A DNA stretch of 34,290 nucleotides from a virus, in the UHGV virus genome UHGV-1987335. One strand, given 5' to 3'. Below are positions 23,701-26,700 of the stretch, piece after piece. Position 1 is the first letter of the stretch. Each line of letters opens with the position of its first letter. The position numbers are program-made.

Positions 23701-26700
23701 TCCAGACTTTCAACTAACAATGTAGTTCCTGGCAATATATAACCATGCTCTATAGCATCTAAAAATTCCGAAAAAGCTCCTGATTGTGCATGCTTTCCTT
23801 TGAATGCACTTAATCCTAAATCTTCATATGTTATGGTATCAAGATAATAATCACTATTTACCTTTAACCATTCAGCAATAAGTCTTCTCTGTCGGTTTAA
23901 TGAGTCGCCAGACATCTGACCTGGTGATGAAAATCGCATATATGCTATGGCTTTTTTCATGGTGACACCTGCTAACGTATGCTTTTATAAACCTTAGTGG
24001 TGGGATATAATTTTTGTTTAATTTTTATTTAAAAAGACAATTAAGGTCACATTATCTTGAATATACAACAATAATCGTATTGCAATTTTCTTACGCCATA
24101 ATCTTGAAAGCACAAAAGAATACATAAAAAATAAAGACATTAACAAAAAGCATAAAACGAGGCTCATATAAATATAAGAGCCTCCATATTTTAGTCGTTT
24201 AGAAACAAATTATTTTAATGTGGTGTGCTTCGTGACAATAAATTAATAACCAACACACCGGCACAAATCAACATCATGCCTATAATGGCTGGCAGGTCCA
24301 GCCGTTGGCAGAAAAAATCCCCATGACAGTAAGCTAATCAGGACAATACCGACTCCTGACCAGATACCATAAGCAATCCCTGTAGGAATATAAGCCAGCG
24401 TCTGAGCTAATAACCAGAATGATGCACAATAACAAATAATTGTACCAACAGATGGCCATAACCGTGTAAAACCTTCTGAAAACTTCATTAAGGTTGTACC
24501 AATGACCTCTGCAAGTATTGCACCACCAAGATAAATATAAGGGTTCATAGCATATTCTTTCCTGTTCAAACTGGAGAGAATTGTACTACAGTTTGAACTC
24601 AACTCACCTGTTTCATCATTGTGTTCCCATTGATGTTCTTTTATATACCCTCAGTACCCGTTTCATCGCGGCACTCTGGCGACACTCCTTAAAAATCAGA
24701 TTCGTGCTCACCTTTCCTTCCCGTTCTTCTCTGGTAGCGAACCGGTAATACACCGTTCGCCAGACCTTACCATCAACGACCAGGATTCTGGTTACGGTTG
24801 CACCTGTTACCGCGGCAACGTCCTGTGCACAGAAGCTCTTATGCGTCCCCAGGTAATGAATAATTGCCTCTTTGCCCGTCATACACTTGCTCCTTTCAGT
24901 CCGAACTTAGCTTTGATTTCTGCGATCTTCGCCAGAGCCTGTGCACGATTTAGAGGTCTACCGCCCATGACAGGAAGTTGTTTTACTGGTTCAGGTATCG
25001 CCTCACCACGGTTAATTCGCGCGGTCATACAGGACAGTTCATCGGCAGCCTTGCGCCGTAATTCCGCGTCAGTCAGCGCATTGGCCCGCATGTTCTGGTA
25101 CAAGTTGGTAACCAACCAGTAATGCGCGTTCGATTTCCACGGATAAGACTCTGCATCCGGATACAGGCCACGCTTCCGGCAATACTCGTAAACCATATCA
25201 ACCAGCTCGCTGACGTTTGGCAGCCCGGCGTTAACAGATGCTTCTTCCCGGCACCAGGCGACAAACTGCCCGGGTGATGGCAGGAATGGTCGATTCTGCC
25301 GACGGGCTACGCGCATTCCAGCGTTAACCTGTTCCATTGTGGTGATCCCGTTTTCCCGGAAAGCCAGAACCCACTGGCGGCGGATTTCGTTCAGTTCATT
25401 CTGGTCACGGTTAGCCAGGCTCGCCGGGAAAGTTGCCAGTAACTGGCTGAACACACCGTTGATGATCTGCGCTACCTGCTGTACCTGTGGCTTTTCGTCG
25501 TACTGTTCCGGCATGTTGTTGGCGATCCGGCGCATCTGCTCACAGTCAAAGTTAACCATCTGTGCGGCGATGTTTTTCATAGCTCCACCCCGTAAATCCA
25601 GTCAGTGTTCGTCAGGTCGAGTTTTGGTTTGCCGGCTGTCACGCCAGCCTGTTGCTTGTTTCGGTTGATTTCGAGCTGGGTCCACTTGTCGCGGAGTTTG
25701 GCCGGACTTAGCACGTTACCGGACCAGAAGTTGTCCTGGCATGCCCAGCGGAACAGCACGCACATGTCGCGGTGGTTACGTCCGTCACGTTCACGCATCA
25801 GGCGGATATCGTTAGCCCACCCTGCAAAATTCGGTTTTCTGGCTGATGGCGCGATGGTCTTCACCATGTCAAACATCCACTCTGCGGCGGTCAGGTCTTC
25901 TGCTGTCCCCCACTTGCTGCCGCTCTGAATTGCAGCATCCGGTTTCACCACAGGAAGATCGTTTTCTGGTTGGTCAGAGGATTCGCCAGAATTCTCGGAC
26001 GAAAAAGGTTTTATATTGTCTTTTGTTAGTTTGTCTTTTGTGTTTACCTGATTCGGGTAAACGCCTTTACCTGATTTGGGTAAACTTTTTTTACCTGATT
26101 CAGGTAAATTTACCTCTTTCAGGTAAACTTTATTTTTCTTACCTGATTCGGGTAATGTTGACCATTCACTGACCACATTATTAATGCCGGTATTCCGCCC
26201 GCTCTGAATAAAAATCCCACGCTTTACCAGAACACTTTTTGCAGCAGAACACTTGTGCGGCAATATCCCGGTCAACTCGGAAAGTTGCTCGTTGCTCACC
26301 CAATCCAGTTTTTTATTAAAGCCATATGTTTTGCGCATGACAGCCAGGAAGACCAGAAGCTGGTGCTGTGTTAATCCGGCCAGCATCACAGCTTCCAGCA
26401 ACTCATTTGCAATGCGCGTATAACCATCATCGAGATCTGCCACACGCGGCTCCTTTTGTGCCGCATCCGGCACTGGAAAATTGAATATCTCAGCAGTGTT
26501 TGCCATAATTCCTCCCGCAATGAGTGTGTTACGATTTGCACCTGAAAGTCGGTTCTGTTCCCGCAGACCGACTTTCGCCATTTTTGAACCTGTCATATTG
26601 CCCCCAGCATGGTGGTGACCATCGCCATCAATGGACCAGCCAGATCCGGGTCCACTCGAAACATCGACACAATGCCTTCACTCATCTCCTTCAGTTTCTG

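What the first reader, a model, noticed from the sequence alone, without database searches (positions are those of the whole stretch)
25995..26160. Origin iterons distinct from lambda inside a chimeric O gene
Five 18-19-bp repeats of the TTTACCTGATTCGGGTAAA type, each an internal palindrome, lie inside O and are followed by an AT-rich stretch, matching ori-lambda architecture. The iteron sequence differs from lambda, and the O N-terminal domain is unlike lambda O while the C-terminal P-interacting domain is lambda-like. This is a clean example of replicon specificity swapped by module exchange; the fifth, more distant repeat is unusual.
Basis: partly seen in the sequence, partly recalled or inferred. 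Interest (0 to 1): 0.45.

Follow-up and report, generated by a model that had tools for sequence, protein, structure and literature searches.

The report
Common non-lambda origin in O gene
This is an ordinary lambda-style phage replication origin: five binding-site repeats plus an AT-rich stretch inside the initiator gene O. The repeats differ from lambda's, but the same module is already in sequenced phages and in about 44% of complete E. coli genomes.

Summary
Five imperfectly palindromic 17-19 bp repeats lie at 26043-26156, with core TTACCCGAATCAGGTAA in gene orientation. A 25-35% GC stretch (25995-26042) follows them. All of it sits inside a minus-strand O gene (25577-26506), directly upstream of a lambda-type P gene.

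The O N-terminal domain is a diverged homologue of lambda O, not "unlike" it: 48% identical, same Pfam family. The C-terminal domain is 96-98% lambda-like, and P is 98% identical.

Four of the repeats sit in the positions of the four lambda iterons (spacing 19/24/23 against 20/24/23). The fifth is a family-conserved extra copy on the upstream side.

The same N-domain and iterons also occur joined to a different C-terminus and an AAA ATPase loader, in a Klebsiella phage and an E. coli strain. The joint falls inside an AT-rich block conserved in lambda, P22 and this type. That is the textbook modular-exchange picture (Furth and Yates 1978).

The module is 97-99% identical in 15 complete phage records (a 16th matches in part). 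It occurs in 2413 of 5426 complete E. coli genomes. Low interest.

The parts
25577..26506 (-). O gene (309 aa plus stop), the origin-binding replication initiator. Many records annotate a 339-aa form starting at 26596.
   Evidence: ORF list. GGAGG lies 5 nt upstream of the ATG at 26506. Lambda O aligns from residue 1. Pfam Phage_rep_O covers aa 22-116 at E=1e-33. The exact protein is on at least 1000 contigs.
26159..26506 (-). Coding sequence of the O N-terminal DNA-binding domain (aa 1-116), non-lambda specificity type.
   Evidence: Identity to other O proteins: 48% to phage 434 O (lambda-type iterons), 58% to P22 gp18, 81-84% to the Klebsiella phi8.2 and E. coli VREC0761 O proteins.
26138..26156 (.). 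Iteron 0, the extra upstream copy (ATTACCCGAATCAGGTAAG in O orientation), 29 bp start-to-start from iteron 1.
   Evidence: It is absent from lambda and 434, where the alignment shows a 10-codon gap. It is present in the Klebsiella and E. coli relatives.
26109..26127 (.). Iteron 1 (TTTACCTGAAAGAGGTAAA).
   Evidence: It aligns with lambda/434 iteron 1.
26090..26108 (.). Iteron 2 (TTTACCTGAATCAGGTAAA), with perfect 8+8 palindromic arms.
26066..26084 (.). Iteron 3 (TTTACCCAAATCAGGTAAA).
26043..26061 (.). Iteron 4 (TTTACCCGAATCAGGTAAA), which abuts the AT-rich block.
26012..26042 (.). Conserved AT-rich block (CACAAAAGACAAACTAACAAAAGACAATAT in O orientation, two 15-bp direct repeats). Inferred unwinding element and the shared joint where the modules are exchanged.
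   Evidence: Direct repeat D2. GC 25-35%. The block is conserved in lambda, 434, P22, Klebsiella phi8.2 and E. coli VREC0761. T-K-D...K residues are invariant in six O proteins.
25983..26011 (.). Rest of the AT-rich stretch, plus a lambda-type imperfect inverted repeat centred on GAATTC (25983-26002). Near-identity to lambda and 434 starts here.
   Evidence: Pairwise columns. The megablast match to 434, SfI and Stx1 phages ends at query positions 1165-1178, which is window 26043-26056.
25580..26008 (-). Coding sequence of the lambda-type C-terminal (P-interacting) domain of O, aa 167-309.
   Evidence: 137 of 143 residues identical to phage 434 O. Only 3 differences from lambda O after residue 166.
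24879..25580 (-). P gene, the lambda-type helicase loader. Its start overlaps the O stop.
   Evidence: Pfam Phage_lambda_P at E=8e-62. 228 of 233 residues identical to lambda P.
26481..26587 (+). Possible oop-like antisense unit. A promoter-like site at 26481-26509 overlaps the O start codon. A hairpin follows at 26544-26576, then CGCCATTTTTG.
   Evidence: Promoter scan. RNA fold -24.6 kcal/mol, z = -4.3. In lambda the pO promoter overlaps the N-terminal end of O (PMC6022878). No Rfam match. Its function here is inferred only.

Best explanation
This is the replication origin of a lambdoid (DLP12/phage-82-like) prophage, built exactly like ori-lambda but with a different initiator-origin specificity.

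Proposed mechanism:
1. Dimers of the O protein bind the palindromic iterons through the N-terminal Phage_rep_O domain. There are four core iterons at 19/24/23-bp spacing and one auxiliary upstream copy.
2. The assembled O-some destabilises the adjacent conserved AT-rich block.
3. The lambda-type C-terminal domain of O recruits the P-DnaB complex, so the host helicase is loaded there.

The gene is a natural mosaic. The N-domain and iterons are of one specificity type (TTACCCGAATCAGGTAA). They are joined, within the conserved AT-rich block, to the lambda-type C-domain and P.

Shown here: the anatomy, the homologies, the mosaic joints, selection on the iteron DNA, and the presence of the module in deposited phage genomes.

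Inferred from lambda biochemistry: O binding to the iterons, unwinding, and P/DnaB recruitment.
For: - Five iterons, far above chance.
- An AT-rich block immediately after the last iteron in gene orientation.
- O has the Phage_rep_O domain and P is Phage_lambda_P.
- The O C-domain is 96% identical to phage 434 O and near-identical to lambda O, P is 98% identical to lambda P, and the N-domain is only 48% identical.
- The four core iterons align column for column with the four annotated lambda/434 iterons.
- The repeat is a DNA-level unit, not a peptide repeat. The same motif is read in two codon phases, giving LPESGK/LPKSGK in one and VYLKEVN/VYPNQVN in the other.
- Iteron cores are 91-94% identical to relatives diverged by about 20%. 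Spacers are only 56-70% identical and the adjacent coding sequence 69-73%.
- Each N-domain type surveyed carries its own palindromic iteron, mostly at the same 20/24/23 spacing: lambda, P22, ST104/Yersinia/RCIP0114, Sf101. The phi80-type HK225 uses a 21-bp period.
- The same N-domain, iterons and AT block are joined to an unrelated C-terminus and an AAA ATPase gene in Klebsiella phage ST11-VIM1phi8.2 and E. coli VREC0761.
- The whole O/P/ori module is 97-99% identical in 15 complete phage genomes whose records name E. coli C or K-12 as host.
- The literature supports an N-terminal DNA-binding domain, a C-terminal P-binding domain, and O dimers on each iteron (PMC6022878). It also supports type-specific iterons inside the initiator genes of lambda, P22 and L (PMC8022706).
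Against: - No binding or replication experiment exists for this iteron type in anything I could read. No paper in the searchable library contains the iteron sequence.
- There is no solved structure of a homologue by sequence search.
- Whether the fifth iteron is bound or needed is unknown.
- This particular prophage copy has not been shown to be inducible.
Confidence: 0.9

Rival explanations
1. The repeats are only a consequence of a repetitive peptide linker (LPESGKK-like) in O and have no role as DNA sites.
For: The repeats lie in the linker between the two O domains and encode Lys/Ser/Gly/Pro-rich peptide.
Against: - The same DNA motif is translated in two different phases into unrelated peptides.
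- The motif is palindromic.
- Iteron cores are more conserved than the spacers and the neighbouring coding DNA.
- The copies occupy the positions of the experimentally defined lambda iterons.
Confidence: 0.03
2. The origin is a decayed relic in a defective prophage and no longer fires.
For: The neighbouring emrE homologue carries a frameshift. Some E. coli copies of this origin carry a one-iteron deletion with a frameshifted O, or a 15-bp deletion in the AT-rich block.
Against: Here O and P are full length, all five iterons and both AT-rich 15-mers are intact, and the 651-bp N-domain plus ori segment is 100% identical to several genomes. The 191-bp ori segment is at least 99% identical in 1638 records. 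The module is 97-99% identical to complete deposited phage genomes.
Confidence: 0.07
3. The palindromes are operators for a regulator other than O, such as a repressor or a host factor, and the true origin lies elsewhere.
For: None specific. Palindromic repeats are in general also typical of operators.
Against: The position, number, spacing and flanking AT-rich block reproduce ori-lambda and the P22 ori. The iteron type changes together with the O N-domain type across the phages surveyed. The immunity region with its own repressor and cro lies about 1 kb away.
Confidence: 0.01

Closest known systems
ori-lambda with lambda O and P (also phages 434 and 21, and Stx1 phages)
   Same: - The origin lies inside O, in the linker between the domains.
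- The four core iterons are at the same positions (19/24/23 against 20/24/23).
- The conserved ACACAAAAGACA...ACAAAAGA AT-rich block follows the iterons, and then the GAATTC-centred inverted repeat.
- The C-terminal domain of O and the P protein are nearly identical.
- A promoter-like site overlaps the O start, as pO does in lambda.

   Different: - The iteron sequence is TTACCCGAATCAGGTAA instead of TCCCTCAAAACGAGGGA.
- The N-domain is only 48% identical.
- There is one extra upstream iteron with a 10-codon insertion.
- The cII slot holds a 181-aa YdaT-family gene.

The O/P/ori module of sequenced coliphages PhiR70_1, PhiR26_1, 4A7, Lambda_4C10, Perceval, Turner, 1W and 3W, and of prophages in 2413 of 5426 complete E. 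coli genomes
   Same: The same module at 97-100% nucleotide identity, including all five iterons. It is annotated as replication proteins O and P.
   Different: Nothing of substance. Those records do not annotate the iterons or the origin, and they often call the longer 339-aa O.
Klebsiella phage ST11-VIM1phi8.2 and E. coli VREC0761 O-type initiators with an AAA ATPase loader
   Same: The same N-domain type (81-84% identical), the same five iterons (cores 91-94% identical) and the same AT-rich block.
   Different: The C-terminal domain is unrelated (13-18% identity). It is followed by an AAA/ATP-binding protein gene instead of P.
Phage P22 gene 18 origin
   Same: The N-domain is 58% identical. 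There are four iterons with the same TTACC...GGTAA outer half-sites at 20/24/23 spacing, and the same AT-rich block.
   Different: The centre of the P22 palindrome is 2 bp shorter (TTACCGATTTGGTAA). P22 has its own C-terminal domain, which works with the gp12 DnaB-type helicase.
Stx phages 933W and P27 (six lambda-type iterons)
   Same: They carry extra iterons on the upstream side of the array, with a matching insertion in O (13 aa there, 10 aa here). In P27 the extra iterons are weakly bound but are required for plasmid establishment (PMC7466680).
   Different: Their iterons and N-domain are of the lambda type. They have two extra copies rather than one.
Classical phage 82 origin (Moore, Denniston and Blattner 1981, Gene 14:91; Furth and Yates 1978)
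   Same: From memory only: phage 82 has a non-lambda ori specificity, an O C-terminus that recombines with lambda O, and possibly five repeats. Tested here: the window's nin region is 95.8% identical to the phage 82 record X92588.
   Different: The identity of the ori sequences could not be checked. The 1981 paper and any 82 ori record are not in the collections available to me.

Membership tests
Lambda-type O/P replicon (Phage_rep_O initiator with an intragenic iteron origin) | Initiator with an N-terminal Phage_rep_O DNA-binding domain. | tested here: met
   Pfam PF04492 at E=1e-33, 116 bits against a cutoff of 28.7, covering aa 22-116.
Lambda-type O/P replicon (Phage_rep_O initiator with an intragenic iteron origin) | Four or more inverted-repeat iterons of about 17-19 bp, inside the initiator gene between its two domains, at about 20/24/23-bp spacing. 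| tested here: met
   Five copies at 29/19/24/23 spacing, encoded by aa 117-155. They align in register with the lambda/434 iterons.
Lambda-type O/P replicon (Phage_rep_O initiator with an intragenic iteron origin) | AT-rich region directly downstream of the last iteron. | tested here: met
   GC 25-35% at 26000-26040. The conserved block is shared with lambda, 434 and P22.
Lambda-type O/P replicon (Phage_rep_O initiator with an intragenic iteron origin) | Lambda-type C-terminal domain of O, and a lambda P helicase-loader gene immediately downstream. | tested here: met
   C-domain 137/143 identical to phage 434 O and near-identical to lambda O. P is 228/233 identical to lambda P and matches PF06992 at E=8e-62.
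Lambda-type O/P replicon (Phage_rep_O initiator with an intragenic iteron origin) | O binds the iterons, and O and P drive replication from this origin. | not testable with these tools
   Indirect evidence only. The same module sits in deposited phage genomes whose records name E. coli C or K-12 as host, and the iteron cores are under selection.
Ori-lambda specificity group (lambda, 434, 21, Stx phages) | Iteron consensus TCCCTCAAAACGAGGGA with the matching lambda-type N-domain. | tested here: not met
   The iteron core here is TTACCCGAATCAGGTAA, 59% column identity to the 434 iterons. The N-domain is 48% identical.
Phage 82 replicon | Same iteron sequence and number as the published phage 82 ori. 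| not testable with these tools
   No 82 ori sequence is available. Only the nin region of phage 82 (X92588) could be compared, at 95.8% identity.

The most novel reading that the evidence does not exclude
The upstream fifth iteron, with its 10-codon insertion in O, may be a functional auxiliary site. Like iterons 1' and 1'' of Stx phages, it could alter O-some geometry or host dependence. It would do so in what appears to be the most common lambdoid replicon type of E. coli, which has not been characterised biochemically in anything I could find. Its N-domain reads a TTACC-N7-GGTAA palindrome, whereas its 58%-identical P22 relative reads TTACC-N5-GGTAA. That would imply a change in dimer geometry rather than in base contacts.
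Probability: 0.25. Interest if true: 0.3.

Novelty: already known. Interest (0 to 1): 0.12.

Why it matters
It matters little beyond annotation.

- It shows that a very common E. coli prophage replicon (44% of complete genomes) has an origin that can be marked precisely: five iterons plus an AT-rich block. The current O annotations lack this feature and often use a doubtful upstream start.
- It is a clean teaching example of domain-level mosaicism, with the conserved AT-rich block acting as the joint.
- For laboratories working on lambdoid or Stx-phage replication it offers a natural second specificity that works with the same P protein. It also offers the same specificity working with a different loader.

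Tried and rejected
- I tried to establish whether this is the classical phage 82 origin. Full-text searches for the iteron strings found no paper. Searches on phage 82 with ori and related phrases gave only reference-list citations. Two papers I tried to open by PMC id were not held. Only the 82 nin-region record is in the phage collection. The question stays open.
- I checked whether the Stx-phage origins studied by the Wegrzyn group are this type. They are not: they are lambda-type iterons in six copies.
- A sequence search of solved structures found nothing.
- A gathering-threshold Rfam scan and a tRNA scan of the window found nothing. The terminator scan did not flag the oop-like hairpin.
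- I did not run structure prediction or large homology searches on the O N-domain. The Pfam match and the pairwise alignments already settle family membership, and the result would not change the verdict.
- Two early Python scripts failed because one locus file had not been copied to the scratch machine. The alignment tools were used instead.

Full report
**What is there**

The region lies inside a minus-strand ORF. That ORF is followed, with overlapping stop and start, by a second minus-strand ORF at 24879-25580. Pfam identifies the first as a Phage_rep_O initiator (E=1e-33, domain at aa 22-116). It identifies the second as lambda P (E=8e-62).

The conserved start of O is the ATG at 26506. 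A GGAGG lies 5 nt upstream, and lambda O aligns from its own residue 1. Many database records instead call a 339-aa form starting at 26596.

**The observation**

A repeat search finds one family of five copies at 26043-61, 26066-84, 26090-108, 26109-27 and 26138-56. The 17-nt core, allowing up to 3 mismatches, occurs only at these five sites in the whole window. That is 8 strand-matches against 0.08 expected by shuffling.

In the orientation of O the copies read ATTACCCGAATCAGGTAAG, TTTACCTGAAAGAGGTAAA, TTTACCTGAATCAGGTAAA, TTTACCCAAATCAGGTAAA and TTTACCCGAATCAGGTAAA. Each has 8-bp arms around a central base, with 0 to 2 mispairs. Start-to-start spacing is 29, 19, 24 and 23 bp.

Directly after the last copy, GC drops to 25-35%. 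The sequence there is two 15-bp direct repeats, CACAAAAGACAAACT and AACAAAAGACAATAT. The observation and its coordinates are therefore correct. The AT-rich stretch is 'after' the repeats only in gene orientation.

**The repeat acts at the DNA level**

- The same motif is translated in two codon phases. It gives LPESGK/LPKSGK in one and VYLKEVN/VYPNQVN in the other.
- I compared relatives whose neighbouring coding DNA is 69-73% identical. Their 17-bp cores are 91-94% identical and the spacers between them only 56-70%.

**Comparison with lambda**

Against lambda O the protein is 67% identical overall, but the identity is sharply divided. The per-segment figures below were measured against the O of phage 434, whose record annotates 'ori lambda4 iterons'.

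| Segment of O | Identity to phage 434 O |
|---|---|
| N-domain, aa 1-116 | 48% |
| Iteron-encoded linker | 28% |
| C-terminal domain, aa 167-309 | 96% |

The direct alignment with lambda O shows only 3 differences after residue 166. P is 98% identical to lambda P. So the N-domain is a diverged homologue, not something unlike lambda O.

At the DNA level, the four copies nearest the AT-rich block align in register with the four annotated lambda/434 iterons, whose spacing is 20/24/23. The fifth copy corresponds to a 10-codon insertion on the upstream side.

The block ACACAAAAGACA...ACAAAAGA.AATA is shared by the window, lambda, 434 and P22. It encodes the T-K-D...K residues that are invariant in all six O proteins aligned.

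**Module exchange**

Megablast identity to 434, SfI and the Stx1 phages stops at window 26043-26056, the edge of the iterons.

Column-by-column comparison places the joint more precisely. The window follows the 'TTACC' type through the first part of the AT-rich block, to about 26012. It follows the lambda type from about 26010 onward. The joint therefore lies inside the shared block.

The reciprocal combination also exists. Klebsiella phage ST11-VIM1phi8.2 and E. coli strain VREC0761 have all of the following:
- the same N-domain type (81-84% identical);
- the same five iterons and the same AT-rich block;
- an unrelated C-terminal domain (13-18% identical);
- a downstream AAA/ATP-binding protein gene instead of P.

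Salmonella phage SEN34 carries yet another iteron type, joined to a lambda-like C-domain and P.

**Survey of N-domain types**

Each N-domain type has its own palindromic iteron.

| Phage or group | Iteron | Spacing |
|---|---|---|
| lambda, 434 | TCCCTCAAAACGAGGGA | 20/24/23 |
| P22 | TTACCGATTTGGTAA | 20/24/23 |
| ST104, Yersinia 21.09, Klebsiella RCIP0114 | TTAGCCAAGTCAGCTAA | 20/24/23 |
| Sf101 | TGTCACCAAAACGGTGACA | 20/24/23 |
| HK225 (phi80-type) | TTCCCGAAAACGGGAA | 21-bp period |

This is what the literature describes: type-specific iterons inside the initiator genes of lambda, P22 and L (PMC8022706). It also describes an N-terminal DNA-binding domain and a C-terminal P-binding domain joined by a flexible linker. 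The lambda-82 and lambda-phi80 hybrid O proteins of Furth and Yates 1978 are the founding evidence (PMC6022878).

**The fifth repeat**

It is not peculiar to this sequence. It is present, with some degeneracy, in all relatives of this type that I examined.

Extra upstream iterons are also known elsewhere. Stx phages 933W and P27 have six lambda-type iterons and a 13-aa longer O. Their extra copies are weakly bound but are needed for plasmid establishment (PMC7466680). Whether iteron 0 here behaves in the same way is untested.

**How common it is**

- The full O/P/ori segment is 97-99% identical over 100% of its length in 15 records of complete phage genomes, including PhiR70_1, 4A7, Lambda_4C10, Perceval and Turner. 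A 16th (D2) matches 87% of it at 95%. Several of these records name E. coli C or K-12 as host.
- The 191-bp origin segment is present over at least 80% of its length in 2413 of 5426 complete E. coli genomes. It is at least 99% identical in 1638 records, O157:H7 strains among them.
- The exact O protein is on at least 1000 contigs, in a 90%-identity cluster of 7825 members.
- Rare decayed variants exist. One has a 23-bp one-iteron deletion that frameshifts O. Another has an in-frame 15-bp deletion of one AT-rich 15-mer, which recalls the in-frame 12- and 15-bp AT-rich ori deletions (ori:95, ori:96) of lambda.

**Mechanism**

The steps below are inferred from lambda, not shown here.
1. O dimers bind iterons 1-4, and possibly iteron 0, through the N-domain.
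2. The resulting nucleoprotein complex stresses the AT-rich block and opens it.
3. The lambda-type C-domain recruits P-DnaB.

I put 0.9 on this reading.

I considered three rivals and rate each unlikely, for the reasons given in their own entries:
- the repeats are a pure peptide repeat;
- the origin is a dead relic;
- the palindromes are operators for another protein.

**Relation to phage 82**

The prophage has the gene order P-ren-emrE-ybcK-ybcL-ybcM-ybcN-ninE-ybcO-rusA, as in DLP12 and in phage PhiR70_1. Its nin region is 95.8% identical to the classical phage 82 record X92588.

From memory, phage 82 has a non-lambda ori specificity and an O that recombines with lambda O. Its ori was published in 1981. 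I could not obtain that sequence, so the identity remains an untested lead.

**Verdict**

I rate the novelty as already known and the interest as low.

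Noticed in passing
window 26481-26587 (+): Possible oop-like antisense RNA unit. A promoter-like TTGAAT-17-CATAAT with an extended TG overlaps the O start codon. A strong hairpin follows at 26544-26576 (fold z = -4.3) and then CGCCATTTTTG. The layout mirrors lambda pO/oop. There was no Rfam match, and the terminator scan did not flag it.
   Followed up: partly
window 26506 vs 26596 (-): The start codon of O is ambiguous. Many records, PhiR70_1 and RefSeq among them, annotate a 339-aa O from an ATG that overlaps the upstream stop (ATGA). 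Lambda, P22 and Klebsiella O proteins align from the ATG at 26506, which has a GGAGG Shine-Dalgarno and gives 309 aa. Both lengths occur in the protein cluster.
   Followed up: partly
window 24243-24548 (-), near 24317: The emrE (SMR efflux) homologue has one extra T in a T5 run compared with the intact gene of phage PhiR70_1. This changes the C-terminal third of the protein. It is either a frameshift or a homopolymer sequencing error.
   Followed up: yes
window 28260-29123 (+): The gene in the rex position, just downstream of the cI-like repressor on the same strand, encodes a 287-aa DUF7946+DUF7947 protein. It has a weak hit to the PADLOC candidate defence family PDC-S42 (E=3e-4). It may be a prophage-encoded exclusion or defence gene.
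   Followed up: partly
window 26593-27138 (-) and 27163-27396 (-): The cII slot holds a 181-aa YdaT-family protein and the cro slot a YdaS-family HTH protein, rather than lambda-type cII and cro. Phage records annotate them as cII and Cro.
   Followed up: no
window 18400-24000: The nin/Q region is 95.8% identical to the classical phage 82 record X92588. The gene order ren-emrE-ybcK (a 508-aa serine recombinase)-ybcL-ybcM-ybcN-ninE-ybcO-rusA matches the DLP12 cryptic prophage and phage PhiR70_1. The window is therefore an apparently intact relative of DLP12 and phage 82.
   Followed up: partly
L003 (E. coli UPEC-455U/190220) and L004 (E. coli DETEC-P1056): Natural origin variants. L003 has a 23-bp deletion that fuses iterons 3 and 4, and its O is annotated as frameshifted. 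L004 has an in-frame 15-bp deletion of one of the two AT-rich 15-mers, reminiscent of the in-frame 15-bp AT-rich ori deletion (ori:96) of lambda.
   Followed up: partly
L006 (P22) 667-753 vs window 26043-26156: The P22 and window iterons share the outer half-sites TTACC/GGTAA, but the centre differs by 2 bp (N5 against N7) although the N-domains are 58% identical. This suggests that specificity changed through half-site spacing.
   Followed up: no
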